From: Faecalibacterium sp. CAG:1138
Lineage (GTDB): Bacteria; Bacillota; Clostridia; Christensenellales; CAG-917
Assembly: GCA_000434675.1 (NCBI GenBank)
Contig: HF988637.1
Coordinates: 106,141-170,140 of the forward strand
DNA: 64,000 nt
Direction of reading: 5' to 3'
Of the stretch, positions 7,811 to 21,421 are shown piece after piece. Under the pieces are notes generated by a model. That model worked only from the letters and a program-made list of their open reading frames with translations, did not search any database and was not told the origin of the DNA. Both the position numbers and the translations under genes were made by a program. How positions within the stretch are numbered: the stretch's first letter is position 1; each line of letters starts with the position of its first letter.

Positions 7811-7840
7811 AAGAATTTTCTCAAAAGAATATAAAACAGC

Positions 7841-7869: not shown

Positions 7870-7899
7870 GTAGCTACAATAAATCTAAGGGAGGGTTTT

Positions 7900-8262: not shown

Positions 8263-8274
8263 GGAGAAAATACA

Positions 8275-8493: not shown

Positions 8494-8630
8494 CAGCGGG
8501 ACACTATATGTGCTTAATACACCCGTAATGTCGGGAATTAATAAGGAGAAAAATGATTGAATAGGGCATCCGTATTTATCTTTCCGTTAAAAGTGCGGAT
8601 ATCACCCTATAAAATAAAAATTAAGGAGAA

Positions 8631-8906
8631 TTGAATTATAAGGAATTAAATTTAAGAGAAGAAAAATTAAATAATGAAGTGGAAAATCAAGGTTGCTACA
8701 AAGCCCAAAACGTGGAGAAAATCGACAAGTCAAAAATAAATATGGAGGTGTTAAATAAGATTATCGCGTTTAAGATGTTAGAGATTATGCGTGATAACGA
8801 AATGATTGACGAGCGAGAATACGCCAAAATCGAAAAGAAGCGTTCTCAGTTTGGGGAAAGTGTAGTAAAGCAAAATAAATTATTTAAAGGAGGCGATTTA
8901 ACTTGA
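8631..8906 (+). CDS. Hypothetical protein upstream of and overlapping the serine recombinase start
   Basis: 91-aa ORF with TTG start after RBS AAGGAGAA. It overlaps the next gene by 4 nt. No motif recognised. Confidence 0.35.
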   Translation: MNYKELNLREEKLNNEVENQGCYKAQNVEKIDKSKINMEVLNKIIAFKMLEIMRDNEMIDEREYAKIEKKRSQFGESVVKQNKLFKGGDLT

Positions 8907-10678
8907 TTGAAAACGGAATGGTAATGCCCACTAACGTTAATTTTAACAGGGCAAGGCAAAGAAGAGTGGTTTTCTACGGACGAGTAAGCACGGAACACGA
9001 AGCGCAACTTTCGGCGTTAGAAAATCAGATGCAATGGTACGACGACGTGGCGGATAGAAATCCTAATTGGTATGTTATTAAGAAATATATCGACGAAGGG
9101 ATTACGGGAACGCAAGCGAAAAAGCGACCTGCATTTTTAAGGATGATACAAGACGCTAAACAAAAAAAGTTCGATTTAATCGTAACGAGAGAAGTGTGTA
9201 GATTTGCAAGAAACACGGTTGATACGCTTGTTGTTACGAGAGAGTTAAAAGAGTACGGCATCGAAGTCTATTTTGTGGAAGACAACATTTGGACGATGGA
9301 CGGAGACGGAGAATTAAGACTCACGATTATGGCAACGCTTGCGCAAGAAGAAAGCAGAAAAATTTCCGAACGTGTTCGAGCAGGGCAGAAAATCAGTAGA
9401 GACAAAGGCGTTTTGTATGGAAGTGGTAATATTCTTGGTTATGATAGGGACAAGGCAAAAGGAACTTACGTAATCAACGAAGAACAAGCCGAAACGGTGC
9501 GTATGATTTACGATATGTATTCGGCAGGCAAAGGAATATCTCAAATTCGTGACGAGATGATACGACTTAAAAGAAAAGATAGTTCGGGGTTAGTTAGATG
9601 GGAGAATGCGAAAGTATCACGAGTACTACATAACTCAACCTATAAAGGCTATCCTGCCTACTTAAAATCACGAAGAAATAATTTCCTTGACCAAAAAATT
9701 ATTTTAAACCGTGACGAAGATACCTATCTTTACGTAAAAGGCGATTTTGAGCCGATTATATCCGAAGAGCAATGGGATAGATGCAAGCAAATTAGAGAGC
9801 AACGTACAAGGTATAGAAAATTTCGCACGGAAAACGGGGAAGTTCTTCACAAAACGGGCATTCACGAAAGTAGCGACGTTTGGACGAAGAAATTAAAATG
9901 TAGATGCGGTTATAAAATGCGCAAAAACAAATGGCGTAAGAATAAAAACGGCGAAGTCACCTATGGATATAAATGCTATAACCAACTTAACTATGGTTCT
10001 AAGGATATTAGAATTGAAGCAGGGATTGACGATTCAAAAAGTTGTAATCTTAGAGAAATATGCGATTGGAAATTAGAAATGATGGCAAGGCATATTTTTG
10101 CAGGGTTATGGGGTAACAAGAAAGATATTCTAAATAACGTGTCCTCTTTATATCAAATCGGTGTGTTTCAAGAATATCAAAAAGCGGCGGAAATTAAGGC
10201 AACGGTTGATAAAGAGATAGCAAAGTTAGACGAAAAACTAAAACGCTTAACTCGTATGCGCTTGGAAGACGAAATTCCAAAAGAGTCTTACTTAGAACTC
10301 AAAAAGGAAATTGAGCAAGAGAAAATCGAACTTATAAACAAAAGGCGTATTCTTGATGCGGGGATGGTTCCAAACGAAGACGGGGAAGAAGAGCCTGCAA
10401 AAAAGGTGGAAGACTTCTTGTTGTCGAAAATGGATTTTACCGAACACTACGTAGATAGAGAAGTGATTAAACAGTTCGTTCATACCATTGTTCCCGTAAC
10501 GGAAACGTGCTTTAATTGGTATATGAACTTTGACTTAATTGACGTGCCAAACGACATGAAAAAGTTAGTATGGGAATTTACGATTGATTATAAATCGGCA
10601 AGGTCTTATAGAAAGGAAAAGAACGGTATGCTTAGACCAAATCAATGGCAAGATTTAACGGTAAAAGTGTTTATATAA
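8903..10678 (+). CDS. Large serine recombinase (TnpX/phage-integrase type)
   Basis: Resolvase catalytic domain: 'VVFYGRVSTEHEAQ' (catalytic Ser) and 'DLIVTREVCRFARN'. A recombinase domain follows, then the Cys-rich 'KCRCGYKMRKNKW...YKCYN' zinc ribbon and a C-terminal coiled coil. Total 591 aa. Confidence 0.9.
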   Translation: MIENGMVMPTNVNFNRARQRRVVFYGRVSTEHEAQLSALENQMQWYDDVADRNPNWYVIKKYIDEGITGTQAKKRPAFLRMIQDAKQKKFDLIVTREVCRFARNTVDTLVVTRELKEYGIEVYFVEDNIWTMDGDGELRLTIMATLAQEESRKISERVRAGQKISRDKGVLYGSGNILGYDRDKAKGTYVINEEQAETVRMIYDMYSAGKGISQIRDEMIRLKRKDSSGLVRWENAKVSRVLHNSTYKGYPAYLKSRRNNFLDQKIILNRDEDTYLYVKGDFEPIISEEQWDRCKQIREQRTRYRKFRTENGEVLHKTGIHESSDVWTKKLKCRCGYKMRKNKWRKNKNGEVTYGYKCYNQLNYGSKDIRIEAGIDDSKSCNLREICDWKLEMMARHIFAGLWGNKKDILNNVSSLYQIGVFQEYQKAAEIKATVDKEIAKLDEKLKRLTRMRLEDEIPKESYLELKKEIEQEKIELINKRRILDAGMVPNEDGEEEPAKKVEDFLLSKMDFTEHYVDREVIKQFVHTIVPVTETCFNWYMNFDLIDVPNDMKKLVWEFTIDYKSARSYRKEKNGMLRPNQWQDLTVKVFI

Positions 10679-10905
10679 CATAAGAATGATAAGGGAAAAA
10701 CTTAGAAAAAATTAAAACTGAATACAACCGCTACGGCGGATAAATATATGGATAATAGTATCGTGATAACAGCCTAAAACTAAACGGGCAATTTGTCGCT
10801 AAGGGCAAAAGATAACGAGCACAGGCGAACATCCGTAATCCGAGGGCGACCAAATAAGTCCGAAATCGGCTAAAAAACGCATAATTTATACTAAAACGCA
10901 CGAAA

Positions 10906-10940
10906 AGCAGTCATTCTTGCGAAAGAGTGACTGCTTTTTT
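10906..10940 (+). terminator. Rho-independent terminator downstream of the serine recombinase
   Basis: AGCAGTCA (10906-10913) pairs with TGACTGCT (10928-10935), followed by a T-run. Confidence 0.6.
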
Positions 10941-11061
10941 CTCTGCATTTAGTTCGTCAAAACTCGAAAAATACCCTAAAAAACGGGGGTGGTCAGAAAA
11001 ATGTTACACTTTCCCGTATATACGGATACAGGTAAAAGAGGGCGATAAAAGGAGCGTTTTT

Positions 11062-11616
11062 ATGGTAAAATATATACTTATGATAGAATATCTTTTGAAA
11101 AACAACAACTATTCTCAAGTTGCTACGCTATGCGGATGTTCGCGAATGACGGTATGGCGGGTCTTGCAGCGCATTGATTTTTTGAGTATTTCGCTTGACG
11201 AGATAAAGGAAATGAAGGAAGAAGAACTTCGCTTTTTACTGTTTCCCGAACGGATAAAAAAAGGTAACGGTTATTTGATACCCGACTTCAAATGGGAAGA
11301 ATTTCAAATGAGGAAACATCAATCTTCACTTCGGTTATGTTGGCGAAGATATTGCAAACGCGCTTTGAAACAAAATCTTAAAGCGTATAGTTGGGCAAGC
11401 TTTGTTTTCTTCTATGGTCAATTTCGTAAGCCGTGTTCTGATGAAGATGATCCAAAAGATAAAGTGAGAAACAAGTTGAAACATTATAATTTAATGCTGT
11501 CATATTGCAATCCAAACGGCGAGCAATATCAAAAGTTAAAGAAAGAAAAGGAAGAGTGGCTTAAATCACTACACCTTGACGAAAGCAAAATAGTAGACAA
11601 AACCTATGAGTTATAG
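11062..11616 (+). pseudogene. IS21-family transposase (IstA) N-terminal HTH fragment, lacking the DDE domain
   Basis: 'SQVATLCGCSRMTVWRVL', then '..LFPER.....YLIPDFKWEEFQMRKHQSSLRLCWRRY......AYSWASFVFFY', matches the IstA N-terminal layout (HTH, then LFP..PD...L.LLW.EY...YSYS.F). The ORF ends ~60 aa later with no catalytic domain and no istB. Confidence 0.5.
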
Positions 11617-11744
11617 GATAGTCAATAAATAAAAATGGAATTTATATATACAAAACGATAATAGAAAACACCATTTAAATGATTGCATAAACTCGGATAT
11701 TCGTAAAAGAACATTCGACTTTGTAATTTAATATAAGAAACATA

Positions 11745-11780
11745 AGAGAGAACAAGGATAAATGTTCTCTCTCTTTTTTA
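11745..11780 (+). terminator. Rho-independent terminator
   Basis: AGAGAGAACA-aggataaa-TGTTCTCTCT followed by CTTTTTT. Confidence 0.65.
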
Positions 11781-11856
11781 TGCCGTTTCGAGGGGTGATT
11801 TCCTATTTACGGTGAGAAAAATTATAATAATAACAGTAAATCGAAAGGAGTTTTCA

Positions 11857-12791
11857 ATGAAATACAAAGATTGGTTGGACGTATGGTTTGCGAACTACAT
11901 AGAGCCTTCGTCTAAAACGAAAACGTGCGAAAGATATTCGGAGATTATCGAAAAGCACTTGAAGGTAAAGTTGGGCGAGTACGAGCTTGAAGAACTGTCG
12001 CCCATCGTCATACAGAAGTATATTACCGAACTTATGCAGTCGGGCAATCTGACAACCGGAAAGGGGTTAGCGGCTAATTCCGTAAACAGGATTATTACGG
12101 TTATTCAGAATTCTCTGAAACTTGCGTATACGCTCGGAGAGCTAAAAGAGTACACGACAGACAAAATCAGACTACCGAAAACGAAAGAGAAAGAAGTATC
12201 CTGTTTTTCGCTTGCCGAACAGAAGAAGATAGAGCAGGCGGCGTTATCGAGTAAGAAGCGTAAATTCATCGGGATCGTGATTTGTCTTTATTCGGGTTGC
12301 GTATCGGAGAATTGCTTGCGCTTACTTGGGCAGATATTGATTTCACGAAAGGAACGCTTGCGGTGAACAAAACCTGCCACGACGGGCGAGATGAAAACGG
12401 GAATCTCTGCCGGATCACGGACTTGCCGAAAACAACTTCTTCCAAAAGAATGATTCCGCTTCCGAAGCAGTTGCTTCCCGTTCTGAAAGAATATAAGAGA
12501 AAAAGCATTTCGGAGTATGTTGTGGAATCGGAAAAGGGCGAGCCGCCTACGGTGCGATCTTATCAGAGAACCTTTGAACTTTTGCAAAAGCGTTTGCATA
12601 TTGAGCGTAAAGGTTTCCACTCGCTTCGGCATACGTTTGCTACACGCGCTTTGGAATGCGGGATGGACGTGAAAACATTGGCGGAGATATTGGGGCATAA
12701 AAACGCCACGGTAACGCTGAACAGATACGCCCATTCGCTTATGGAACACAAGCAGGATATGATGAATAAGCTCGGCAAAATTTTCAACTAA
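11857..12791 (+). pseudogene. Tyrosine site-specific recombinase (integrase/invertase family) interrupted by a 1-nt frameshift near 12297
   Basis: The N-terminal SAM-like domain (ORF 11857..12366) reads '..GIVICLYSG'. The text then continues in the next frame as 'LRIGELLALTWADIDF...' (ORF ..12791). The catalytic residues are in 'HSLRHTFATRALECG...LGHKNATVTLNRYAH'. The junction is at 'tcgggttgcg'. Confidence 0.8.
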
Positions 12792-12793
12792 AA

Positions 12794-12999
12794 AAGCCGT
12801 CTGTTAAAGCAATAGGTGAACAAAACCATAGACTTCGGACACCTATCGAGAGTATTTACGAATTTTATTATTTTTCTGACCGCGCGAAAGCACTGAACAT
12901 CGACTTTACTACCGTTTTATGGTATAATAAACATAATATTTGAGCCGTCTATTGCTTTAATAGGCGAACAAAATTCTGCGAGATAATTCACCTATCGGG
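12794..12999 (+). repeat. Module 1: ~57-nt structured repeat units R1 (12794-12850) and R2 (12942-12999) bracketing a promoter; candidate invertible promoter
   Basis: R1 core is CCGTCTGTT-AAAGC-AATAGGTG (12797-12818). R2 core is CCGTCTATT-GCTTT-AATAGGCG (12945-12966). The central pentamers are reverse complements, which gives a perfect 12-bp inverted repeat TTAAAGCAATAG (12804-12815 vs 12949-12960). Confidence 0.6.
12900..12928 (+). promoter_or_regulatory. Extended -10 promoter inside module 1, pointing at the SLOG gene
   Basis: TCGACT (12900-12905), a 17-nt spacer, then TGgTATAAT (12920-12928). Confidence 0.55.
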
Positions 13000-13009
13000 A
13001 GTCATTGAA

Positions 13010-13480
13010 TTGGATATTTTTCGGGTTTCATTTATAGGTCATAGAGTAGTGTACGAGTACCGGCAAGTCGAAGAAGAACTTGACGAAGTAATCGAATTAC
13101 TGCACCGTAAATATGGGTTTATAGACTTTAACGTGGGACGAAACGGCGAGTTTGACGAACTTGCCACACAAGCCGTCAGACGATTCCGAAGAGAATGGGA
13201 AGAGTGGTGCGAGCTTACGCTTGTCGAACCGTATCCCGTGGCGAACTTGGATATTATAGAGAAGTCTTATGATAGCGTTATTATCCCGACCGATAGGAAA
13301 TGCCATTACAAAGCGGCGATAGGAGAACGCAACAAATGGCTTGCCGAGAATTGCGATATGATGGTCGTCTATATCAAGCGTGATTATGGCGGTGCGTATA
13401 AATGCTATAAGTACGCACAGGAACTTGGTGTGCCGATTATGAATATAGCGGATAATATCAAAAATAATTACGAAAAGTAA
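13010..13480 (+). CDS. SLOG-superfamily / DUF1273-like (YpsA-type) protein
   Basis: 156 aa with TTG start after GGGAG. 'VSFIGHR' (compare the xTGHR start of DUF1273 proteins), 'VGRNGEFDELATQAV', '..ERNKWLAENCDMMVVYI...GGAYKCYKYAQELGVPIMNI' follow the Rossmann-like YpsA/DprA-LOG layout. Confidence 0.5.
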   Translation: MDIFRVSFIGHRVVYEYRQVEEELDEVIELLHRKYGFIDFNVGRNGEFDELATQAVRRFRREWEEWCELTLVEPYPVANLDIIEKSYDSVIIPTDRKCHYKAAIGERNKWLAENCDMMVVYIKRDYGGAYKCYKYAQELGVPIMNIADNIKNNYEK

Positions 13481-13535
13481 AAGTAGCGAAAGGTCGGATT
13501 TTTCAACCTTTTTCGCTTGGATAATGTTAGTTAAA

Positions 13536-13740
13536 AAGCCGTCTATTCGCATAATAGGCGAACAATCGAAAGAGTTGTGTTCACCTATCGAAAAGATTTA
13601 TGGAAAAACAAGAGATTTTCACTTGCGCAAAAAGGCTTTATATTGACCTTTCTTCTTTTTTATGGTATAATATAACATAGATTAAAGCCGCCTATTATGC
13701 GAATAGGCGAACAAAATAAAGTGTGTTTGTTCGTCTATCC
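13536..13740 (+). repeat. Module 2: repeat units R3 (13536-13592) and R4 (13685-13740) bracketing the hsdM promoter; candidate invertible promoter
   Basis: R3 core is CCGTCTATT-CGCAT-AATAGGCG (13539-13560). R4 core is CCGCCTATT-ATGCG-AATAGGCG (13688-13709). The pentamers are reverse complements, which gives a perfect 15-bp inverted repeat CTATTCGCATAATAG (13543-13557 vs 13692-13706). Confidence 0.6.
13643..13671 (+). promoter_or_regulatory. Near-consensus promoter inside module 2, pointing at hsdM
   Basis: TTGACC (13643-13648), a 17-nt spacer, then TATAAT (13666-13671), with TG at 13663-13664. Confidence 0.65.
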
Positions 13741-13788
13741 AAAGCAAGAAGCGGTAAATAAAAAGCCGAGAGCAGAGGATAAAGCACG

Positions 13789-15876
13789 ATGAGCGAAAAC
13801 AAGATACTTGATACAATGTGGGACGATAACCCGATAGACATCACGCAGGAAGCGAATTTTATATGGAGCATTGCCAACAAGTTGCGCGGCTCATATATGC
13901 CAGATAAATACGGCGACGTCGTAATTCCTATGACGATTCTGCGCCGTTTCGAGTGTGCGCTTGAAGCCACAAAGCAGGCGGTGTTAAAAGCCTATCAGTC
14001 AAACCCGAATTACCCGTCGAAAGCACTTTGCAAAATCGCGGGGTTTTCGTTCTATAACACGAGCGAGTACGACTTAAAAGAACTCTGCAACGATTCCAAG
14101 CATATTGCGGCGAACTTCAAAAATTATATCAGCGGTTTTTCGGCTAACGTAAAGGACATTTTTGCCGAACTTGAAATGGACAAGCATATCGACAAAATGG
14201 AAAAGGACGGCTGTCTGTATTCCGTTGTCGAGGCGTTTTCCGTGCTTGACCTATCCATAAAAACTTACGACAGTATCAAGATGGGATATATTTTTGAAAA
14301 CCTGATCGGCAGATTTTATCAGAACGTGGACGCCGGACAATTTTATACGGGCAGAGATATTATCAAATTGCTCGTAGAAATTTTGATGGCAGAAGGTTGC
14401 GACGATATTTTCGACAGCCACAAGGTTATTACCGTTCTCGACCAAGCCTGCGGAACGGGCGGTATGCTTTCCACGGCGTATACCTACATAAAACACTATA
14501 ATCCTACGGCGGAAGTCAAACTGTTCGGGCAGGAATTTATGGGGCAGTCTTACGCGGTAGGGCTTGCTGAAATGCTCATTAAAAATCAGGACTCGGATAA
14601 TTTCCGTCACGTCGATACGTTCAAAACCGATTGCTTTGCCGATACGAAAATGCGTTTCGTCATCGAAAACCCGCCGTTCGGCACACCGTGGTCGGGTAAA
14701 GACGCAAAGGACGGACAGGAGCAAGCCGTGCGCGACGAATACGCCAAAGGCGAAACGGGCAGATGGGGACACGGACTTCCGAGCGGTGGCGACTCACAAA
14801 TGATTTTCTTGCAGTCCGCCGTGGACAAAATGGACGACTTTTGCGGCAGAGCGGCGATTATCGAAAACGGCTCGCCGCTGTTTAACGGCGATACCGCTTC
14901 GGGTGAAAGTCAGATTCGCCGTTGGCTTTTGGAAAGCGACCTTATTGAAGCGATTATCGCTTTGCCGACCGATTTGTTCTACAACACGGGCATTCAGACC
15001 TACGTTTGGATTCTCTCGAAAAATAAGCGCAAAGAACGCAAAGGCAAAATACAACTCATCAACGCCGCCGAGATTTACCATAAACTGCGTAAAGCCGTCG
15101 GCAACAAGAAAAACGAAATTACGAGAGAGGACAGAAAGAGAATTACGCACCTTTACGCCGATTTCGTGCCGAGCGACCTTTGCAAGATTTACGATAACAC
15201 GGAGTTTCTTTACAAGGAATATGCCGTTATGCAACCGCTTCAACGCAGTTACGCTATCACGGAAGAGCGTATCGAGAAAATGCTGATGAAAGGCGCGCTT
15301 TCGGGCGTTTACGACGAAGCAAAGATTGCCGACTACGAAAGTCAGGGTGTTGCGCTTGCCGATAAGGATAAGAAAAAATACGAAGAAATGCTTGAAAGAA
15401 AGCCGTTATATGAGGACATTCTGCAAACGCTGAAAGAGCATATCTCGGACAAGGTGTATAAAGAACCGGAAAGTTTCATCAAGTGCCTTTCGGGAATTTT
15501 GTCGTGCGATAAAAAACTGACAGAGCGTATCGCGGACGGGCTTTCCGAGATGGACAAAACGGCGGAAATTCAGCGTGATAAAAAGGGCAATATTATTTAC
15601 GACAAAGAAACGCGCGACACCGAAATTGTGAAATATACCGAGGATATAGAAACCTATATGGCGCGTGAAGTGCTGCCTTACGTTCCGGACGCGAAATGGT
15701 TTTGGGAAGAAAATCTCGGCGCGAAAAAGCCCGTGATAAAAATCGGCGCAGAAATACCTTTTACAAGATATTTCTACAAGTACACTGAGCCTGAAAAGAG
15801 CGAAGTGTTGGAAGAAAAATTCCTAACGCTTGAAGAATCTGTTTCGGCTCGTATTGCCACATTATTCAAAAAGTGA
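13789..15876 (+). CDS. hsdM: Type I restriction-modification system, DNA methyltransferase subunit M (long form)
   Basis: SAM motif I 'VLDQACGTGGML' and catalytic motif IV 'VIENPPFG'. 695 aa. Followed directly by hsdS. Confidence 0.92.
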   Translation: MSENKILDTMWDDNPIDITQEANFIWSIANKLRGSYMPDKYGDVVIPMTILRRFECALEATKQAVLKAYQSNPNYPSKALCKIAGFSFYNTSEYDLKELCNDSKHIAANFKNYISGFSANVKDIFAELEMDKHIDKMEKDGCLYSVVEAFSVLDLSIKTYDSIKMGYIFENLIGRFYQNVDAGQFYTGRDIIKLLVEILMAEGCDDIFDSHKVITVLDQACGTGGMLSTAYTYIKHYNPTAEVKLFGQEFMGQSYAVGLAEMLIKNQDSDNFRHVDTFKTDCFADTKMRFVIENPPFGTPWSGKDAKDGQEQAVRDEYAKGETGRWGHGLPSGGDSQMIFLQSAVDKMDDFCGRAAIIENGSPLFNGDTASGESQIRRWLLESDLIEAIIALPTDLFYNTGIQTYVWILSKNKRKERKGKIQLINAAEIYHKLRKAVGNKKNEITREDRKRITHLYADFVPSDLCKIYDNTEFLYKEYAVMQPLQRSYAITEERIEKMLMKGALSGVYDEAKIADYESQGVALADKDKKKYEEMLERKPLYEDILQTLKEHISDKVYKEPESFIKCLSGILSCDKKLTERIADGLSEMDKTAEIQRDKKGNIIYDKETRDTEIVKYTEDIETYMAREVLPYVPDAKWFWEENLGAKKPVIKIGAEIPFTRYFYKYTEPEKSEVLEEKFLTLEESVSARIATLFKK

Positions 15877-15884
15877 GGTGCAAT

Positions 15885-17132
15885 ATGAGAGAGATGAAAG
15901 ACAGCGGAATATCTTGGGTAGGAGAGATACCCAAAGAGTGGAGTGTTTGGCGCAATAAATATATTTTTAAAATAACAAAGGATATTGTTTTGCCAAGCAA
16001 AAGTTACCAACTTTTATCGTTGACTACAACCGGAATAAAAGAAAAAGATGAAAACGATAATGGTGGAAAAGTGCCTGAAAATTATGATGGATATCAAATT
16101 GTTAAAGAAAATGATTTGGTAATGTGTCTATTTGATCTTGATTGTTCGGCAGTCTTTTCGGGTTTAAGCCCGTATAACGGTATGATTTCCCCGGCATACA
16201 AGGTCTTAAAAGTAAAGAAACGTATAGCAAACGAGCAGTATTATAGGTATTGGTTTAATTATGTTGGTTCAAAACGTTTTTATAAGCAATACTCTAAAAG
16301 TTTGAGATTCACGTTAAATGCTGATGAGTTTAATCGCTTATTTTCGCTTTTACCACCGCTTGACGAGCAACAGAGAATTGCGGAGTTTTTGGATAGGGAG
16401 TGCGGGAAGATTGACGGATTGAAAGCGGATATTCAGGCGCAGATTGATACGCTTGAACAATATAAGCGTTCCGTAATTACCGAAGCCGTTACTCACGGTC
16501 TGAATCCGTCCGCCCCGATGAAAGACAGCGGTATTCCGTGGGTGGGACAATTTCCAACTCATTGGACAAAGAAAAAGGGGAAGTATATTCTTCGTTATAT
16601 GTCTAAACCCGTAAAGCAAGATGACGGTGTTATAACCTGTTTCAGGGATGGAGAGGTTACGCTTCGCAGTAATCGCCGAGAAGATGGTTTTACGATGGCA
16701 GACAAAGAAATTGGTTATCAAGGCGTTGATGTGGGAGATTTGGTTGTTCACGGAATGGACGGTTTTGCCGGTGCTATCGGAATTTCGGATTCAAGAGGCA
16801 AAGCGTCACCTGTGCTAAACGTCTTAAATACAAAGCAAAATAAAAAATACATAATGTATTATTTGAGAAGTATGGCGTATGGGGATGTTTTTACGGCTTT
16901 ATCGACAGGAATCAGAGTACGTTCTTGCGATTTGAGGTGGAACAAACTTGCCGAATTGCTATATCCGTTGCCGCCGATAGATGAGCAAAATAATATTGTA
17001 AATTATATTGATGAGCAAATTGCTCGAACAAACGAGATTATCGCGGATAAAAAATCGCAAATCGAAACGCTTGACGGCTACAAAAAATCGCTCATTTACG
17101 AATATGTTACGGGCAAAAAGGAGGTGGGATAA
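15885..17132 (+). CDS. hsdS: Type I R-M specificity subunit S (two target-recognition domains)
   Basis: Duplicated conserved spacer regions 'LPPLDEQQRIAEFLDRECGKIDGL...LEQYKRSVITEAVTHGL' and 'LPPIDEQNNIVNYIDEQIARTNEII...LDGYKKSLIYEYVTGKK'. ATG 15885 follows RBS GAGGTG. Confidence 0.9.
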   Translation: MREMKDSGISWVGEIPKEWSVWRNKYIFKITKDIVLPSKSYQLLSLTTTGIKEKDENDNGGKVPENYDGYQIVKENDLVMCLFDLDCSAVFSGLSPYNGMISPAYKVLKVKKRIANEQYYRYWFNYVGSKRFYKQYSKSLRFTLNADEFNRLFSLLPPLDEQQRIAEFLDRECGKIDGLKADIQAQIDTLEQYKRSVITEAVTHGLNPSAPMKDSGIPWVGQFPTHWTKKKGKYILRYMSKPVKQDDGVITCFRDGEVTLRSNRREDGFTMADKEIGYQGVDVGDLVVHGMDGFAGAIGISDSRGKASPVLNVLNTKQNKKYIMYYLRSMAYGDVFTALSTGIRVRSCDLRWNKLAELLYPLPPIDEQNNIVNYIDEQIARTNEIIADKKSQIETLDGYKKSLIYEYVTGKKEVG

Positions 17133-17133
17133 A

Positions 17134-17484
17134 ATGGATATAAATTTAATGAGCGGTAATTTTTGTTCGGCTGAGCAGTATCATAGAGCCTTAGAAGAAG
17201 CCGAAAAAGAACAAAAACAGCAAAAAATCGAAGAAGAAAGAAAAATAGAAATATTAAATTCGCCGATTGTAGAACAATTGCGATCATTGGTTGAGCAAAG
17301 TAATAAACAAGTCAATGTTTTGCAAGAAGAAAACGAAATACGAAAACAGCAGGTGGCTAAACTTGAAGAAAGCGAAGAAAGAGCCAGAAAGGAAGCAAGA
17401 TCAGCGAAAAATCTCAGCATCATTTCATTTTGCGTGAGTACGGCAATAGCAATTGCTTCGGTGATTGTGTCGATAGTAAAATAA
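17134..17484 (+). CDS. Tail-anchored coiled-coil membrane protein (unknown function) embedded in the R-M operon
   Basis: ATG 17134 lies 1 nt after the hsdS stop (17130-17132). 116 aa: a Glu/Lys/Gln-rich heptad-like region, then the C-terminal TM 'LSIISFCVSTAIAIASVIVSIV'. The track's 17008 start overlaps hsdS and is rejected. Confidence 0.6.
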   Translation: MDINLMSGNFCSAEQYHRALEEAEKEQKQQKIEEERKIEILNSPIVEQLRSLVEQSNKQVNVLQEENEIRKQQVAKLEESEERARKEARSAKNLSIISFCVSTAIAIASVIVSIVK

Positions 17485-17505
17485 AATGAAAGGAGGGATA
17501 GAATA

Positions 17506-18438
17506 ATGTGGTGGGAATGGATGATATTTGCCATTGTGCTTGTGATTGTTCCATTTGGAGTAAAGGGTTTGAAAAAGCTTGCTTTTTCGGAAATTACACC
17601 GACAAAAGAACAAGAGCGTTATGCACGGAATAAAGCTGTTTTATATACGGCATTCTTTTGGCTCTGCGATTTGTTTGGCATGTCTTTTATCATAGACAAT
17701 ATCGCATGTCGCTTTGCGTTTGGCATTATGGTTATGATTTGTATCTTCGCAAATTTAGCAGTGCAACCTGTTGTTGGTGCAAAAGGTTTTTTGTCAAAAT
17801 TGGGGTTGATTGGTGACTTTTTGTGCGGTGTTGGATTTTCTATATATCTGATTTACATAATCCCAAACAAAGATTTGAGAACGGTTGTTTTGGCAATTGT
17901 CGCAGCGGTATATGGCGGAATGATGACTTTGGTCGGCGTTGCGTGGACAATAAAGAAAGGTGACAAAGATAGAAAAGAAGATTTACAGCGACTCGAAAAT
18001 GAACGAAAAGAAGAGGAACGTATAAAATATAGTCCTGTATTCAGCGTTGTGGAAAAAAACGCTGATCCTCAAAAACGAATATTAATTAATTTAAGCACGG
18101 TTGAAAACATAAATAAGATTACTACTAACAAAAAAAACAAGAACAACATCGAACTTTATCCAGTACTCATAGAAAATTCAAGCAAAATAGAGTTTTATGT
18201 GTACGGTTTTTTGTTCGATGGCGTTTTCTATGCGACACAAGAAAAATATCTCATAAAGAAAGATTATGGTTTTTGTGTTTATTTCGATGATGATTTGAGT
18301 TTTACATGCGAACATAAGATGGCTATTTGTGTAGAGGATTTGATAGAAAACAAATACGAGGCTGAATTAAATGGAATCGTTGAAAATAAAACTCTATACA
18401 TACGAGGAAATAAAAAATTGCAATTGATGGGAGCATAA
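17506..18438 (+). CDS. Polytopic membrane protein (about 5 N-terminal TM helices + ~140-aa soluble C-terminal domain), unknown function, embedded in the R-M operon
   Basis: RBS AAAGGAGGG (17489-17497) precedes ATG 17506. Stop 18436-18438 lies 1 nt before the hsdR ATG 18440. No recognisable catalytic motif. Visibly more AT-rich than flanking hsdM/hsdR. Confidence 0.6.
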   Translation: MWWEWMIFAIVLVIVPFGVKGLKKLAFSEITPTKEQERYARNKAVLYTAFFWLCDLFGMSFIIDNIACRFAFGIMVMICIFANLAVQPVVGAKGFLSKLGLIGDFLCGVGFSIYLIYIIPNKDLRTVVLAIVAAVYGGMMTLVGVAWTIKKGDKDRKEDLQRLENERKEEERIKYSPVFSVVEKNADPQKRILINLSTVENINKITTNKKNKNNIELYPVLIENSSKIEFYVYGFLFDGVFYATQEKYLIKKDYGFCVYFDDDLSFTCEHKMAICVEDLIENKYEAELNGIVENKTLYIRGNKKLQLMGA

Positions 18439-18439
18439 A

Positions 18440-21421
18440 ATGAATAATATACTCACAGAAAAAGAATATCAGCGGTTTATCATAGATAAGCTCGTTGCTG
18501 AAAACGGCTACGTAGAGCGGAAAAACGTGAAGTTCGACCGTAAGTTTGCTATCGACCGTGAAATGCTGTTCAAGTTTCTTGACGATACACAGCCCGAAGC
18601 GATGGCGCAGATTCGCAAGGTGTATAAAGACGTTACCGAAGATACGGTGGTGAACTTTATCAATACCGAAATCACGAAAGCGAAAAGCAGTCTGTTATCC
18701 GTATTAAAACACGGCGTGGAAATCGCGGGGTATAAGTTAGACCTTATGTATACCAAGCCCGCAACGACTTTCAATAAAGACTTGCTTATAAAATACAATA
18801 AAAATATCTTTTCCGTAATGGAAGAAGTGTGGGCGAGTGATACCGAGAGAATCGACCTTGTGGTTTTCCTGAACGGCTTTGCGATTATGTCGTTTGAACT
18901 CAAATGCAATTTTGCGGGGCAGAGCTATCAGGACGCGATTTTGCAATACCGCACGCAAAGAAACCCGAAAACGCGGTTGTTCTATTTCAAGGCGGGGTGT
19001 ATCGTCAACTTTGCAATGGACTTGGAAGAAGTGTATATGACGACGCGCCTTGCGAACGACGGCACGTTCTTTCTGCCGTTCAATATGGGTAGCGGCAACG
19101 GTATTGACGCGGGCAAGGGCAATCCCGTTTATCCCGACAAATATTCCGTCTATTATATGTGGGAAGATATACTCAAAAAAGATACGGTGTTAGACCTTAT
19201 CTCGGAGTTTATCTTTATCGAGCGCAAGGAAGAAACGGACGAAGTAACGGGCAAAACCACGGTAAAAGAAAAGGTGGTTTTTCCGCGCTATCATCAACTT
19301 GACGTGATCCGCAAAACGATAGCGGACGTGGAAGTCAACCGCACTTCGCAAAACTATCTGATACAGCACAGCGCGGGTTCGGGCAAAACGAATTCCATTG
19401 CGTGGCTTGCACACAGGCTTTCTTCGCTTCACGACGAAGAAAACAAAATCGTTTTTGATAATATCATCATCTGCACCGACCGCGTGGTGGTGGACAGGCA
19501 GTTGCAGGACGCGGTGCGCGGTATCGAACACAAGACGGGGCTTATTAAGGTGATGGACGATAAATGTTCGTCGGCAGACCTTGCTCTCGCGCTTCAAAGC
19601 AATATCAAGATTATCGGCACGACGATACAGAAATTTCCGTATATCGTGGACACGGTGAGAAATCTGAAAAACAAGACTTTTGCCGTGATTATCGACGAAG
19701 CGCATTCTTCCACCGCCGGAAAAGATATGGCGGCAATCACGATGACGCTCGGCGCGGGCGAAGTGGATTTTGAAGAAGGCGTTATCGATACGCAGGATAT
19801 GATTGCGGACGAAATCCGTCGCAACGGCAAGCAAAAGAACGTTTCTATGTTTGCCTTTACCGCAACACCGAAAGCGACTACTCTCGACTTGTTCGGCAGA
19901 TTGAACGCAAAAGGGCAGAAAGAAGCCTTCCACTTGTATTCGATGAAACAGGCGATAGAAGAAGGTTTTATTTTAGACGTGCTTGCCAACTTCACCGAAT
20001 ACAATACGTATTATCGGCTGAACAAAGAGATCTCGGAAGATCCGAAGTATAAGACGGCGGAAGCCAAAAAGCAAATCGCGCGGTTTGTGGAACTGCACGA
20101 AACGAATATCGCGCAAAGGGTGGAAGTGATTGTCGAACATTTCCGCACGACGGTTTTATCTGAACTCGGCGGAATGGCAAAGGCAATGGTGGTAACGGCT
20201 TCCCGCGCAAGTGCGGTGAAGTACCGACAGGCGTTTGAAGATTACGTTACCAAGAAAGGCTACGCGGGTATTCACGCGCTTGTGGCATTTTCGGGAAAAG
20301 TAAAACTGCCCGACGACGAAGCGGAATACACGGAAACGCTTCTGAACGGATTTTCGGAAGATAAACTGCCTAAAAAGTTTGATTCGGACGATTACAATGT
20401 TTTGCTTGTGGCGAACAAGTATCAGACGGGCTTCGACCAACCGAAACTTTGCGCAATGTACGTTTTGAAGAAGTTGCGCGGGGTGAACGCGGTGCAGACG
20501 TTGTCGCGCCTGAACCGTATCTGCCCGCCGTTTGAGAAAAAGACGTTTGTTCTCGATTTCGTGAATACATACGACGATATTGTCAAGGCGTTTGCGCCGT
20601 ATTATACCACGACGTTGCTTGCAAATTCGGTTACGCCGACGGCGGTATACGACTTGGAAGCGAAACTCGACGGATATATGATTTTAGATCCTTACGACTT
20701 GAATATGGCGGCAGAGATTATCTACAAAAAGATTATCGAATCAAAGGACAAAAATCAGTTGCGTTTCTATCTGCAACGCGCCGAGAAAAAGCTGAAAGAA
20801 TACGAATTGATGAAACAAATCGAGATAATGGCGGTCGTGCGGCATTTTATCCGGTTCTACGAGTTCCTGATACAGGTATCGTGTTTTGAGGACGTGGAGC
20901 TGCATAAAAAGTATTTGTTTTTGACTTATTTCGTGTCGTTCGTAAATATTTCTCAGCCGGGCGGCGGTTTCGATTTATCAGGCAAGATAAAAGCGGACAA
21001 CTTTATCCAAAAGAAAGGCGAAGAACATAAAACAACCAAAGTTACGCCCGATCCGATCGTAAAACTGCCGACGGCGGACGACTTTAATCTGAACGAGGAC
21101 AAAGTAAAACGCCTTTCGGAGATTATCGACGAAATCAACAGCAAAACGGGCAAAACCTACGATAACGACGTCGTAATCAAGGCAATGCTTCAAATCAAAG
21201 ACTTGATGATGAAGTCCGAAAAACTGCGCGAGAGTGCGAAAGCAAACACGGAAAGCGACTTTGCGTTTTCGTATTTCGACGGTATCGACGACGCGCTGAT
21301 CGAGGGACTTTCGCAAAATCAGGACTTTTTCTCGTTGCTTCTTTCTAACGACGAAATGAAGAAAGAGGTTCTTGGTATCTTCGTCAGCGAGATTTACAAG
21401 AGCTTGAGAGAAGATAAATAA
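18440..21421 (+). CDS. hsdR: Type I R-M restriction subunit R (nuclease + SF2 helicase/translocase)
   Basis: N-terminal PD-(D/E)xK-like 'RIDLVVFLNGFAIMSFELK'. Helicase motif I 'QHSAGSGKTNSIAW' and motif II 'VIIDEAHSS'. 993 aa. Confidence 0.92.
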   Translation: MNNILTEKEYQRFIIDKLVAENGYVERKNVKFDRKFAIDREMLFKFLDDTQPEAMAQIRKVYKDVTEDTVVNFINTEITKAKSSLLSVLKHGVEIAGYKLDLMYTKPATTFNKDLLIKYNKNIFSVMEEVWASDTERIDLVVFLNGFAIMSFELKCNFAGQSYQDAILQYRTQRNPKTRLFYFKAGCIVNFAMDLEEVYMTTRLANDGTFFLPFNMGSGNGIDAGKGNPVYPDKYSVYYMWEDILKKDTVLDLISEFIFIERKEETDEVTGKTTVKEKVVFPRYHQLDVIRKTIADVEVNRTSQNYLIQHSAGSGKTNSIAWLAHRLSSLHDEENKIVFDNIIICTDRVVVDRQLQDAVRGIEHKTGLIKVMDDKCSSADLALALQSNIKIIGTTIQKFPYIVDTVRNLKNKTFAVIIDEAHSSTAGKDMAAITMTLGAGEVDFEEGVIDTQDMIADEIRRNGKQKNVSMFAFTATPKATTLDLFGRLNAKGQKEAFHLYSMKQAIEEGFILDVLANFTEYNTYYRLNKEISEDPKYKTAEAKKQIARFVELHETNIAQRVEVIVEHFRTTVLSELGGMAKAMVVTASRASAVKYRQAFEDYVTKKGYAGIHALVAFSGKVKLPDDEAEYTETLLNGFSEDKLPKKFDSDDYNVLLVANKYQTGFDQPKLCAMYVLKKLRGVNAVQTLSRLNRICPPFEKKTFVLDFVNTYDDIVKAFAPYYTTTLLANSVTPTAVYDLEAKLDGYMILDPYDLNMAAEIIYKKIIESKDKNQLRFYLQRAEKKLKEYELMKQIEIMAVVRHFIRFYEFLIQVSCFEDVELHKKYLFLTYFVSFVNISQPGGGFDLSGKIKADNFIQKKGEEHKTTKVTPDPIVKLPTADDFNLNEDKVKRLSEIIDEINSKTGKTYDNDVVIKAMLQIKDLMMKSEKLRESAKANTESDFAFSYFDGIDDALIEGLSQNQDFFSLLLSNDEMKKEVLGIFVSEIYKSLREDK

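What the first reader, a model, noticed from the sequence alone, without database searches (positions are those of the whole stretch)
12794..13740. Two promoter cassettes flanked by palindromic sites with pair-specific, reverse-complemented 5-bp centres: candidate orthogonal invertons in front of a SLOG gene and the Type I R-M operon
Four copies of a ~57-nt unit occur in direct order: R1 12794-12850, R2 12942-12999, R3 13536-13592, R4 13685-13740. Each unit starts with a palindromic core.
- R1: CCGTCTGTT-AAAGC-AATAGGTG
- R2: CCGTCTATT-GCTTT-AATAGGCG
- R3: CCGTCTATT-CGCAT-AATAGGCG
- R4: CCGCCTATT-ATGCG-AATAGGCG
The arms are conserved in all four units. The asymmetric centre of R1 is the exact reverse complement of R2 (AAAGC/GCTTT), and that of R3 is the exact reverse complement of R4 (CGCAT/ATGCG). 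The two pairs share no centre sequence.
Orientation of a palindromic-arm site is defined by its centre. R1/R2 and R3/R4 are therefore functionally inverted sites, with perfect 12-bp and 15-bp inverted repeats. Each pair brackets an equal-sized segment of 148-149 bp centre to centre. Each segment contains a strong promoter pointing right: TCGACT-17-TGgTATAAT and TTGACC-17-TATAAT.
Tyrosine recombinases require identity of the crossover (spacer) region between partner sites. Within-pair identity with between-pair divergence is what heterospecific lox/FRT-type sites look like. It would allow two independent ON/OFF switches without deleting the gene between them.
A tyrosine recombinase gene lies immediately upstream (11857-12791). 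As assembled, both promoters are ON.
Basis: partly seen in the sequence, partly recalled or inferred. Interest (0 to 1): 0.85.

Follow-up and report, generated by a model that had tools for sequence, protein, structure and literature searches.

The report
Tandem invertible promoters controlling defence genes
Two short promoter segments next to a recombinase gene are real DNA flip-switches, found in both orientations in related human-gut bacteria, and each uses its own private crossover sequence, so one enzyme could switch a small SLOG gene and a restriction-modification operon on and off independently.

Summary

- **Sites.** The four lox-like sites (9-nt arm, 5-nt centre, 8-nt arm) are the only ones in the window. 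They form two inverted-repeat pairs around strong sigma-70 promoters.
- **Flipped alleles.** About 60 related human-gut contigs carry exactly the predicted flipped alleles. Module 1 is flipped in every relative where it can be scored. Module 2 occurs in both orientations within at least three Type I R-M haplotypes and in a variant that drives BREX.
- **States.** In-silico flips of the window reproduce natural OFF/OFF and OFF/ON loci. The window is ON/ON.
- **Centres.** Across recombinase relatives down to about 65% identity I found 12 different centre pairs, always exact reverse complements. Some differ by compensatory changes. One identical recombinase sits beside two different centre pairs.
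- **No cross-pair events.** The gene between the modules is never inverted.
- **Window state.** The window's recombinase has a 1-nt frameshift, so this copy is probably locked ON/ON.
- **Inferred.** In the OFF state the flipped promoter runs into the left site, which becomes a hairpin followed by a U-run (terminator-like).
- **Classification.** This is a new variant of a known kind, the tyrosine-recombinase inverton.
- **Unexplained.** Each unit has a third arm-like box, and homology with relatives ends exactly after it.

The parts
11857..12791 (+). Tyrosine recombinase gene, disrupted by a 1-nt deletion in a T run at 12297-12298 (gggttgcg here, gggtttgcg in relatives).
   Evidence: Pfam Phage_int_SAM_3 and Phage_integrase on the two ORF pieces. 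The intact 311-aa relative carries the LRIGE Arg, HSLRHTF and NRYAH motifs. 31 of 33 full-length relatives are intact; the window reads a stop at codon 169.
12790..12818 (.). Left site of switch 1 (R1): A-run 12790-12795, then arm CCGTCTGTT, centre AAAGC (12806-12810), arm AATAGGTG.
   Evidence: An A-run to the left of the left site is present in all lineages examined.
12806..12958 (.). Invertible segment 1 (centre to centre, 153 nt including both centres). It carries promoter P1 and the R1 third box.
   Evidence: Found reverse-complemented in 50 relatives with complete site pairs. The crossover is confined to TTAAAGCAATAG. The in-silico flip matches relatives.
12840..12848 (+). Third arm-like box of unit R1 (CACCTATCG).
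   Evidence: Direct repeat family D2. It copies the left arm and is complementary to the right arm. Present in most lineages.
12900..12928 (+). Promoter P1: TCGACT-17-TATAAT with TG extension, pointing at the SLOG gene.
   Evidence: Relatives have TTGACT-17-TATAAT on the opposite strand.
12945..12997 (.). Right site of switch 1 (R2: CCGTCTATT-GCTTT-AATAGGCG, 12945-12966) plus its third box CACCTATCG (12989-12997).
   Evidence: Homology with five relatives ends exactly after this box.
13010..13480 (+). YpsA-like SLOG protein gene (156 aa), driven by P1 when switch 1 is ON.
   Evidence: No Pfam hit for the protein itself. Relatives at 32-37% identity match PF06908 YpsA. AlphaFold model pLDDT 89.4; best PDB match is B. 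subtilis YpsA 2nx2, TM 0.72, E 7.7e-7, followed by DprA and ThsA SLOG.
13489..13511 (.). Terminator-like hairpin between the SLOG gene and switch 2.
   Evidence: Conserved in relatives, including L001, which lacks the recombinase and the SLOG gene.
13533..13560 (.). Left site of switch 2 (R3): A-run, then CCGTCTATT-CGCAT-AATAGGCG.
   Evidence: On the minus strand it reads as a hairpin followed by a T-run.
13548..13701 (.). Invertible segment 2 (centre to centre). It carries promoter P2 and the R3 third box (13582-13590).
   Evidence: Found in both orientations in relatives with the same flanking haplotypes.
13643..13671 (+). Promoter P2: TTGACC-17-TATAAT with TG extension, pointing at hsdM.
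   Evidence: On the minus strand in the OFF relative L029.
13688..13739 (.). Right site of switch 2 (R4: CCGCCTATT-ATGCG-AATAGGCG, 13688-13709) plus its third box CGTCTATCC (13731-13739).
   Evidence: (I2, I8).
13789..21421 (+). Type I R-M operon driven by P2: hsdM 13789-15876, hsdS 15873-17132, unknown ORF 17506-18438, hsdR 18440-21421.
   Evidence: Pfam N6_Mtase/HsdM_N, Methylase_S, and HSDR_N/ResIII/SWI2_SNF2. No hsdS-type inverted repeats in the operon.

Best explanation
These are two adjacent, independently invertible promoter cassettes (invertons), most likely served by the tyrosine recombinase encoded immediately upstream.

**Site grammar.** Each site is a complete lox/FRT-like core: two inverted 8-9-nt arms (consensus C-R-Y-CTATT / AATAGGYG) around a 5-nt centre. 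An odd-length centre cannot be its own reverse complement, so it gives the site a polarity. The two sites of a pair carry reverse-complementary centres, so they are inverted repeats. Recombination within the centre flips the roughly 150-bp segment between them.

**ON state.** A near-consensus sigma-70 promoter reads through the right site into the cargo. That site forms a short hairpin with no U-tail. Switch 1 drives a YpsA-like SLOG gene. Switch 2 drives hsdM-hsdS-hsdR.

**OFF state.** The promoter faces left. The left site is now an extended palindrome followed by a U5-6 run, which would terminate the transcript after about 45 nt.

**Independence.** The two pairs share arms but not centres. 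Tyrosine recombinases need identical crossover regions, so R1 can only partner R2, and R3 only R4. The switches therefore flip independently, and the gene between them is neither deleted nor inverted.

**This copy.** The recombinase gene is frameshifted, so the locus is probably frozen ON/ON.

**Shown:** the site anatomy, natural alleles in both orientations, covariation of centres, and absence of cross-pair events.
**Inferred:** that this recombinase is the catalyst, promoter activity, OFF-state termination, and switching within a single population.
For: - **Anatomy and chance level:**
- **Flipped module 1:** seen in L004 with an intact recombinase, and flipped in all 50 relatives with a complete module 1 site pair; L060 reads as OFF too.
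- **Module 2 upstream of Type I R-M, complete pairs:** ON in L061 and the window (also L001, which has a decayed centre); OFF in L010, L017, L027, L029, L059 and L066. Partial loci: ON in L004, L023 and L067; OFF in L022.
- **Module 2 upstream of BREX type 1:** ON in L056; OFF in 7 loci with complete pairs, plus 3 partial loci.
- **Recurrent flipping:** ON and OFF share flanking haplotypes in at least three R-M groups and in the BREX group, which implies at least four independent flips.
- **In-silico flips reproduce natural alleles:** 96.6-97.0% against 84-85%.
- **Centres:** 12 distinct pairs, all exact reverse complements: AAAGC, AAAGT, AAAAC, CGCAT, CGTGT, AGCAC, ATCGT, AGAGT, AGTGT, ATGAT, ATAGT and AGTAT. 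They include compensatory changes, for example AAAGC/GCTTT to AAAGT/ACTTT in L049 and L067.
- **Same protein, different centres:** the identical recombinase P0188 lies next to ATGAT/ATCAT in L075 and ATAGT/ACTAT in L076.
- **Same protein, both orientations:** the identical recombinase P0179 lies next to a switch that is ON in L078 and L085 and OFF in L079-L082, L086 and L087.
- **Decay without the enzyme:** L001, with no adjacent recombinase, has a mismatched centre and a degraded arm.
- **OFF-state transcripts:** they fold as an inverted-repeat hairpin followed by U5-6 (z = -2.7 and -3.9).
- **Recombinase:** Pfam domains and catalytic motifs are present.
Against: - Module 1 is ON only in the window (1 of 51 complete pairs), so routine switching of module 1 is not shown. 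The single ON copy sits beside a broken recombinase.
- All orientation evidence comes from assembled consensus sequences of different samples. I had no read-level evidence of mixed orientations within one population. The only hint is that eight contigs end inside an inverton.
- No experiment links this recombinase to the sites.
- The promoters and the OFF-state terminator are consensus and folding predictions only.
- The (ON, OFF) combination was not observed.
- L018 joins R2 to the right flank of R4. That could be a cross-unit event, although the junction lies in 16 identical bases and is equally explained by homologous deletion or by ancestry.
Confidence: 0.85

Rival explanations
1. The units are boundaries of mobile or exchangeable cassettes (integron-like, or natural recombinase-mediated cassette exchange). 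In this reading the recombinase also moves the switch, or swaps cargo, at the third box. Inversion would then be only one of its reactions. This is an addition to the best explanation, not an alternative to it.
For: - Homology ends exactly after the third box (CACCTAT) in five different downstream contexts: L013, L026, L034, L037 and L050.
- A sharp left boundary at TGCAATCAATAGTG interrupts leucine-rich-repeat (LRR) surface-protein genes after the SIGxxA motif, and a UvrD-like gene.
- In L026 a 1390-bp recombinase-plus-switch unit is flanked by TGCA on both sides, inside an LRR gene.
- The L013 junction falls on a box-like pseudo-site (CTTATCGC) in a VirB4-like gene that is intact in L040.
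- The same recombinase and module 1 precede Type I R-M, BREX or other genes.
- The identical recombinase P0179 has several different upstream neighbours.
Against: - No empty target site was found among the loci held.
- The centres at the putative left and right ends do not match in L026.
- Integron integrase models score far below their cut-offs (59 bits against 265).
- The junctions could be microhomology deletions, preserved by selection because the functional switch ends there.
Confidence: 0.15
2. The inversions are rare, unprogrammed accidents at short inverted repeats, caused by host recombination or replication errors. The adjacent recombinase would then be an unrelated integrase.
For: - Module 1 is flipped relative to all others only once, in the window.
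- The window's recombinase is a pseudogene.
- PHROGs classes the protein with phage integrases.
Against: - The perfect repeats are only 12-18 bp.
- There are at least four independent flips of module 2.
- The same recombinase-plus-switch architecture, with a new centre pair each time, recurs down to about 65% recombinase identity.
- Breakpoints are always within the centre.
- Centres covary.
Confidence: 0.06
3. The palindromes act at the RNA level. They would be hairpins with complementary (kissing) loops, or alternative hairpins (arm 1 with arm 2, versus arm 2 with the third box) that regulate the downstream genes without any DNA rearrangement.
For: - Each core can fold as an 8-9-bp hairpin with a 5-nt loop, and paired loops are complementary.
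- The third box can pair with the right arm. The module 2 leader folds at -21.7 kcal/mol, z = -4.0.
Against: - Physically inverted DNA alleles exist.
- R1 and R3 lie upstream of the promoters in the ON state.
- No Rfam family matches convincingly; the best local hit (29.7 bits) is a plant microRNA model far below its 171-bit threshold.
- RNA folding may still contribute to OFF-state termination or to leader function.
Confidence: 0.03
4. The apparent flips are assembly artefacts at inverted repeats.
For: Eight contigs end inside an inverton, which shows that assemblers struggle at these sites.
Against: - About 60 independent assemblies from different studies and assemblers agree on clean, full-length flipped alleles with unique flanks on both sides.
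- The repeats are shorter than the k-mer sizes assemblers commonly use (my own general knowledge, not checked here).
Confidence: 0.01

Closest known systems
E. coli fimS switch with FimB/FimE (tyrosine-recombinase invertible promoter)
   Same: A short promoter-bearing segment bounded by inverted repeats. Linked tyrosine recombinase gene or genes. ON/OFF control of the adjacent operon. (My own knowledge of the system.)
   Different: - fimS has 9-bp repeats with flanking half-sites and needs IHF and Lrp; here each end is a full palindromic lox-like site with a free 5-nt centre.
- Here two switches sit in tandem, sharing arms but using different centres.
- The cargo is a defence system.
- NCBIfam FimB/FimE-type invertase models score far below their cut-offs (22-25 bits against about 221).
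Clostridioides difficile RecV-dependent switches (cwpV, flgB, cmrRST, pdcB)
   Same: A Firmicute tyrosine recombinase inverts short regulatory segments to give phase variation (abstracts of PMC7446863, PMC8844915 and PMC9286219). One enzyme serves several switches. Inverted-repeat sequence affects invertibility (PMC12282940).
   Different: - RecV acts on switches scattered around the genome, and several of them work after transcription initiation.
- Here the recombinase is adjacent to its switches, which carry the promoter itself.
- Here the sites are palindromic with exchangeable centres.
- Homology to RecV was not tested because I had no RecV sequence.
Gut-microbiome invertons found by PhaseFinder-type surveys (Jiang et al. 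2019; PMC11892184; PMC11602134)
   Same: Invertible promoters in human-gut bacteria. PMC11892184 reports a Clostridia-dominated inverton group (group 139) statistically linked to an adjacent tyrosine recombinase group (group 35), with a previously unpublished repeat motif.
   Different: - I could not establish whether group 139 is this family. The motif was not in the supplementary text held.
- In what I read of those surveys I did not find pair-specific centres, tandem orthogonal switches, or R-M/BREX operons under promoter inversion. R-M hits there are hsdS-altering inversions.
Engineered heterospecific lox/FRT sites (lox511, lox2272, F3, F5)
   Same: Identical recombinase-binding arms with different spacers, where recombination is restricted to sites sharing a spacer. 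This is the same logic that would keep the two switches independent. (Established knowledge of Cre and FLP.)
   Different: - Those sites are man-made variants with 8-bp spacers and 13-bp arms; here they are natural, with 5 variable bases and 8-9-nt arms.
- Spacer specificity here is inferred from natural variation, not measured.
Phase-variable Type I R-M hsdS shufflons, e.g. pneumococcal SpnD39III/ivr with CreX/PsrA (PMC7672463, PMC9881135)
   Same: A tyrosine recombinase next to a Type I R-M locus. Several distinct inverted-repeat pairs within one locus, each recombining with its own partner.
   Different: - Those inversions rearrange hsdS coding sequence to change specificity.
- Here there is one hsdS with no internal repeats, and the whole operon is switched ON or OFF through its promoter.

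Membership tests
Tyrosine-recombinase invertible promoter (inverton) | A short DNA segment bounded by a pair of inverted repeats. | tested here: met
   R1/R2 18 nt at 89% (12 perfect); R3/R4 21 nt at 95% (18 perfect); segments of 148 and 149 bp.
Tyrosine-recombinase invertible promoter (inverton) | A promoter inside the segment, directed at the neighbouring gene in one orientation. | tested here: met
   10/12 and 11/12 sigma-70 matches with TG extension. Same promoters on the opposite strand in L029. Consensus level only; activity was not measured.
Tyrosine-recombinase invertible promoter (inverton) | Both orientations occur in nature, with breakpoints in the repeats. | tested here: met
   across samples. 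Mixed orientation within one population could not be tested because no reads were available.
Tyrosine-recombinase invertible promoter (inverton) | A linked site-specific recombinase with catalytic residues. | tested here: met
   Phage_integrase and SAM_3 domains. R, HxxR, H and Y motifs in the intact relative. The window's own copy is frameshifted.
Tyrosine-recombinase invertible promoter (inverton) | Inversion depends on that recombinase. | not testable with these tools
   Needs genetics or heterologous expression. Indirect support: co-occurrence across lineages, and decay of the site pair where no recombinase is adjacent.
Heterospecific lox/FRT-type site set | Each site is two inverted binding arms around an asymmetric spacer. 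| tested here: met
   CTATT-N5-AATAG grammar in every site of every lineage examined.
Heterospecific lox/FRT-type site set | One enzyme accepts different spacers. | tested here: inconclusive
   The identical protein P0188 lies beside ATGAT/ATCAT in L075 and ATAGT/ACTAT in L076. One recombinase gene lies beside two centre types in all tandem loci. This is association, not activity.
Heterospecific lox/FRT-type site set | Recombination occurs only between sites that share a spacer. | tested here: inconclusive
   No inversion of the SLOG gene in any locus that holds it together with the recombinase or cargo. The partners of a pair always match and the two pairs always differ. L018 is ambiguous.
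Type I R-M hsdS shufflon (epigenetic inverton) | Duplicated hsdS or target-recognition-domain segments bounded by inverted repeats within the R-M locus. | tested here: not met
   A single hsdS. Only weak 16-25-nt repeats at 80-88% in 13700-22500.
Integron (IntI, attI, attC cassettes) | An integron-type integrase, with attC-bounded cassettes that excise and insert. | tested here: not met
   Integron integrase models score 59 and 34 bits against cut-offs of 265 and 435. The segments between units invert and do not excise.
Described cis-regulatory RNA (Rfam) | A match to a curated covariance model at its gathering score. | tested here: not met
   Nothing at threshold in 11000-15000. The best hit overlapping the units is a plant microRNA model at 29.7 bits against a 171-bit threshold.
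YpsA / SLOG superfamily (gene 13010-13480) | YpsA-type SLOG fold and family motifs. | tested here: met
   Model pLDDT 89.4. Top PDB match YpsA 2nx2 (TM 0.72, E 7.7e-7), then DprA and ThsA SLOG. Three homologues at about 32-37% identity match PF06908. The protein itself is below the Pfam threshold.

The most novel reading that the evidence does not exclude
The recombinase plus its invertible promoter is a portable unit. The third box at the right end and the AATAGTGAA half-site at the left end would be attachment half-sites. The same enzyme would then both flip the promoter and insert or re-join the cassette in front of new genes, which amounts to natural recombinase-mediated cassette exchange. 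On this reading a large family of gut-Firmicute recombinases (over 6000 relatives) spreads ready-made phase-variation switches onto defence systems and surface proteins, and it uses a freely evolvable 5-nt centre as an address that keeps co-resident switches orthogonal.
Probability: 0.15. Interest if true: 0.85.

Novelty: new variant of a known kind. Interest (0 to 1): 0.6.

Why it matters
- **Defence switched as a whole.** Whole anti-phage systems (Type I R-M here, BREX type 1 in close relatives) and a SLOG gene in uncultured gut Clostridia appear to be switched ON and OFF by promoter inversion. Most assembled populations carry them OFF. This bears on how defence costs and phage pressure are balanced in the gut.
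- **Independent switches from one enzyme.** This is a natural case of a principle otherwise known from engineering. One recombinase with constant arms and interchangeable crossover centres could run several independent one-bit switches side by side without deleting the DNA between them.
- **Testable site sets.** The 12 natural centre variants, and identical enzymes paired with different centres, offer candidate orthogonal site sets for a small tyrosine recombinase.
- **Compact design.** If the inferred OFF-state terminator built into the recombination site is real, it is an unusually compact insulating design.

Tried and rejected
- **Rfam.** A scan of 11000-15000 at permissive E-values and of the whole window at gathering thresholds found no RNA family for the units.
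- **Genome and viral scans.** The genome-contig scan with the ON-state pattern returned only seven loci. Two were true relatives (L001, L004), one was a distant relative (L007) and the rest were chance matches. The viral-contig scan gave one chance match.
- **SLOG gene by sequence.** Sequence and profile searches against PDB found nothing useful. PADLOC and NCBIfam found nothing. Only the fold comparison and transitive Pfam matches resolved it.
- **hsdS shufflon.** Rejected: one hsdS and no repeats.
- **Integron.** Rejected.
- **Literature.** Jiang et al. 2019 is not held. The supplementary text of PMC11892184 does not contain the motif. I therefore could not decide whether inverton group 139 in that paper is this family. 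I found no paper describing promoter inversion of Type I R-M or BREX operons by this family, but the library is incomplete.
- **Empty target site.** A search among the loci held, to test the mobile-cassette idea, found none. It only showed that the L013 junction lies on a pseudo-site of a gene that is intact in L040.
- **Homopolymer regex.** A regular-expression count of the T run at the frameshift matched nothing, so I used ORF lengths instead.
Full report
**1. Observation**

The core sites are:
- R1 12797-12818: CCGTCTGTT-AAAGC-AATAGGTG
- R2 12945-12966: CCGTCTATT-GCTTT-AATAGGCG
- R3 13539-13560: CCGTCTATT-CGCAT-AATAGGCG
- R4 13688-13709: CCGCCTATT-ATGCG-AATAGGCG

. A degenerate pattern for the core finds only these four places in the 64-kb window, against 0.12 expected by chance. 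Start-to-start spacing is 148, 594 and 149 nt.

R1/R2 form an 18-nt inverted repeat at 89%, with a perfect 12-nt core. R3/R4 form a 21-nt repeat at 95%. The two modules are paralogues, 76% identical over about 215 columns.

Each module contains a strong sigma-70-type promoter on the + strand:
- TCGACT-17-TATAAT at 12900-12928 (10/12)
- TTGACC-17-TATAAT at 13643-13671 (11/12)

Both have a TG extension.

**2. Surrounding genes**

- **11857-12791:** a tyrosine recombinase (Phage_int_SAM_3 and Phage_integrase), split into two ORFs.
- **13010-13480:** a 156-aa protein with no direct Pfam hit.
- **13789-21421:** hsdM, hsdS, an unknown 310-aa ORF and hsdR.
- **Upstream:** a large serine recombinase (8903-10678) and a helix-turn-helix (HTH) protein.

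The 156-aa protein is a YpsA-type SLOG protein:
- Three homologues at about 32-37% identity match PF06908.
- A confident model (pLDDT 89.4) matches B. subtilis YpsA best (2nx2, TM 0.72, E 7.7e-7), followed by DprA and the ThsA SLOG domain.

**3. Flipped alleles exist**

A genome scan returned L004, from a Clostridiales metagenome-assembled genome (MAG). It has the same locus with an intact recombinase, and the segment between R1 and R2 is reverse-complemented. Its left site reads CCGTCTGTT-AAAGC-AATAGACGG, followed by the promoter on the opposite strand. Its right site reads TCACCTATT-GCTTT-AATAGGCG.

A metagenome scan used a pattern that matches R2 and the R-M-type R4 in either orientation. 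It returned 60 human-gut contigs. BLAST of window pieces and a listing of all sites gave these counts:

| Switch | OFF (flipped) | ON (as in the window) |
|---|---|---|
| Module 1 | all 50 relatives with a complete pair; L060 also reads as OFF | window only |
| Module 2 before Type I R-M, complete pairs | L010, L017, L027, L029, L059, L066 | L061, window; also L001 with a decayed centre |
| Module 2 before Type I R-M, partial loci | L022 | L004, L023, L067 |
| Module 2 variant (CGTGT/ACACG) before BREX type 1 | 7 complete pairs, plus 3 partial loci | L056 |

The BREX cargo is BrxA, BrxB, BrxC and PglX.

ON and OFF copies share flanking haplotypes in three R-M groups and in the BREX group. Module 2 must therefore have flipped at least four separate times.

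I rebuilt the window with 12806-12958 and/or 13548-13701 reverse-complemented:
- L029, L010 and L059 match the OFF/OFF version at 96.6-97.0%, against 84-85% for the window as assembled.
- L061, L067 and L004 match OFF/ON best.
- The window is ON/ON.

Three of the four possible states are therefore seen in nature.

The distinguishing arm bases stay with their flanks. The G of CTGTT stays with R1, and CCGT and CCGC stay put. This confines the crossover to TTAAAGCAATAG in module 1 and to the 18 identical bases in module 2.

**4. Centres covary, and the grammar is family-wide**

In L049 and L067 both centres of module 1 have changed together, from AAAGC/GCTTT to AAAGT/ACTTT. L060 has AAAAC/GTTTT.

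The recombinase has more than 6000 relatives at E below 1e-30. In every relative locus I opened, the gene is followed by the same architecture. It has an A-run, a palindromic site, a segment of about 130-170 bp with a near-consensus promoter, and a second site whose centre is the exact reverse complement of the first.

| Locus | Recombinase identity | Centre pair | State |
|---|---|---|---|
| L044 | 96.6% (nucleotide) | AGCAC/GTGCT | OFF |
| L047 | 74% (nucleotide) | ATCGT/ACGAT | OFF |
| L007 | 65-66% (nucleotide) | AGAGT/ACTCT | OFF by eye |
| L071 | 66% (protein) | AGTGT/ACACT | OFF |
| L075 | 69% (protein) | ATGAT/ATCAT | OFF |
| L076 | same protein as L075 | ATAGT/ACTAT | not called |
| L069 | 75% (protein) | ATAGT/ACTAT | ON |
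| P0179 loci | 68% (protein) | AGTAT/ATACT | ON in L078, L085; OFF in L079-L082, L086, L087 |

. Contigs L083 and L084 end at the left site of the P0179 switch.

That makes 12 distinct centre pairs, all reverse complements. Each pairing has a chance probability of 1/1024.

The one exception is L001. It has module 2 and the R-M operon next to a tRNA gene but no recombinase or SLOG gene in the 7 kb upstream. Its centres differ at one base (CGCAT and ATGTG), and one arm is degraded. That is what decay of an unused site pair would look like.

**5. Independence**

In all tandem loci the two pairs have different centres. In every locus that holds the SLOG gene with the recombinase or the cargo, all are on the same strand. 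I therefore saw no R2-with-R3 or R1-with-R4 inversion. Module 2 flips while module 1 stays OFF.

This fits the established rule that tyrosine recombinases need identical crossover regions. It is the logic of engineered heterospecific lox and FRT sites.

L018 has the R2 centre joined to the right flank of R4, with the SLOG gene and module 2 absent. The junction lies within 16 bases that R2 and R4 share. It could be a homologous deletion or an ancestral single-switch form, and it is not evidence of cross-centre site-specific recombination.

**6. How it most likely works**

*Shown:* the sites, the orientations and the covariation.

*Inferred:*
- The adjacent recombinase binds the arms and exchanges strands across the centre. 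The overlap is probably 5-7 nt, T-NNNNN-A.
- In the ON state the promoter reads through the right site, an 8-9-bp hairpin with no U-tail, into the cargo.
- In the OFF state the left site becomes an extended palindrome, for example AAAGCCGTCTATT-CGCAT-AATAGGCGGCTTT in L029.
- The flipped promoter's transcript would then be GCCG..CGGC followed by U5-6. It folds with z-scores of -2.7 and -3.9.
- The A-run to the left of the left site, which provides that U-tail, is present in every lineage I examined.

The switch therefore looks self-insulating in the OFF state.

**7. State of this copy**

The window's recombinase lacks one T (gggttgcg at 12294-12301, against gggtttgcg in relatives) and reads a stop at codon 169. 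Of 33 full-length copies, 31 are intact. The window is also the only sequence with module 1 ON. The simplest reading is a locked ON/ON variant. A homopolymer sequencing error cannot be excluded.

**8. Rivals**

- **RNA-only mechanism** (kissing loops or alternative hairpins): contradicted by the physically flipped DNA and by the lack of any Rfam match.
- **hsdS shufflon:** excluded by the single hsdS and the absence of repeats.
- **Integron:** excluded.
- **Accidental inversions:** unlikely, given the 12-18-bp repeats, the recurrent flips and the conserved architecture.
- **Assembly artefact:** unlikely, given about 60 concordant assemblies.

**9. Comparison with known systems**

It works like fimS with FimB/FimE and like the RecV switches of C. 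difficile (PMC7446863, PMC8844915, PMC9286219, PMC12282940). It belongs with the gut invertons catalogued by PhaseFinder-type surveys.

PMC11892184 reports a Clostridia inverton group (group 139) linked to an adjacent tyrosine recombinase group, with an unpublished motif. I could not determine whether that is this family.

Phase variation of Type I R-M and BREX in the papers I found concerns coding-sequence inversions of hsdS and pglX (PMC7672463, PMC9881135), not promoter flipping of the operon.

The features I did not find described are:
- lox-like sites with a free 5-nt centre;
- tandem switches that share arms but not centres;
- a terminator built into the OFF-state site;
- defence operons as cargo.

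**10. Unexplained**

Each unit ends with a third box, CACCTATC in the window lineage, about 29 nt after the start of the right arm. It copies the left arm and is complementary to the right arm, and it tracks the arm sequence in other lineages. It could be an accessory binding site that biases direction, since ON and OFF distribute the boxes differently. It could also form an alternative hairpin.

Several boundaries are unusually sharp:
- Homology between relatives ends exactly after this box in five different contexts.
- One class of loci has a sharp left boundary at TGCAATCAATAGTG, which interrupts LRR surface-protein genes and a UvrD-like gene.
- In L026 a 1390-bp unit of recombinase plus switch sits inside an LRR gene, with TGCA on both sides.
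- The L013 junction falls on a box-like pseudo-site of a VirB4-like gene that is intact in L040.

This suggests that the recombinase may also move or re-join the cassette. I found no empty site, so it remains a lead.

**11. Verdict**

It is a new variant of a known kind: a tyrosine-recombinase inverton in tandem, with orthogonal pairs, controlling a SLOG gene and a Type I R-M operon. This copy is probably locked ON.

Noticed in passing
window 1780-1859 (+): AdoCbl-II (cobalamin) riboswitch aptamer, 46.9 bits against a gathering score of 36.5.
   Followed up: no
window 8903-10678 and 10927-11616 (+): A large serine recombinase (Resolvase and Recombinase domains) and an HTH protein lie directly upstream of the tyrosine recombinase. 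The 10552-11591 region is 73-77% identical in L029, L053 and L065. The locus may sit on an integrative element.
   Followed up: partly
window 17134-18439 (ORF 17506-18438, 310 aa): This segment between hsdS and hsdR is absent from relatives L017, L027, L029, L061 and L066, where the end of hsdS abuts the start of hsdR. The ORF has no family match.
   Followed up: partly
window 15946-16349 and 16566-17035 (hsdS): The target-recognition regions of hsdS are not conserved among otherwise 95%-identical relatives, so specificity domains appear to be swapped between strains.
   Followed up: no
L064 (reverse-complement orientation) 7064-10392: In the BREX relatives PglX is split into a 617-aa N-terminal part and two C-terminal-like ORFs (271 and 249 aa). 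Both end in DSFE(E/T)SWDFKKHPLI. They look like alternative PglX end cassettes, as described for gene-altering inversions in PMC9881135.
   Followed up: no
L013, L026, L034, L037, L050 (right junctions); L015, L025, L026, L041, L043, L052, L054 (left junctions): Homology ends exactly after the third box CACCTAT in five contexts. A sharp left end at TGCAATCAATAGTG interrupts LRR surface-protein genes right after the SIGxxA motif. This could be a mobile recombinase-plus-switch cassette.
   Followed up: partly
L054 (orfX fused to hsdM); L018 (R2 fused to the R4 flank); L040 (recombinase stop at codon 131): Several relatives carry deletions or disruptions within the locus. The region is rearrangement-prone.
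   Followed up: partly
L004, L014, L022, L023, L045, L067, L083, L084: Eight contigs terminate inside an inverton. That is expected if the underlying populations contain both orientations and the assembly graph branches there.
   Followed up: no
L061 75-150; L001 1000-1076: Many relatives carry the locus next to a tRNA gene (tRNA-Asn in L061, tRNA-Pro in L001), a typical position for a genomic island.
   Followed up: no
L078 3288-6518; L071 5260-8930; L075 5295-8462: In more distant relatives the same type of switch precedes a 1474-aa LRR_5 surface protein, a 1258-aa protein with no domain, or a 1055-aa helicase-like protein. The cargo range therefore goes beyond defence systems.
   Followed up: partly
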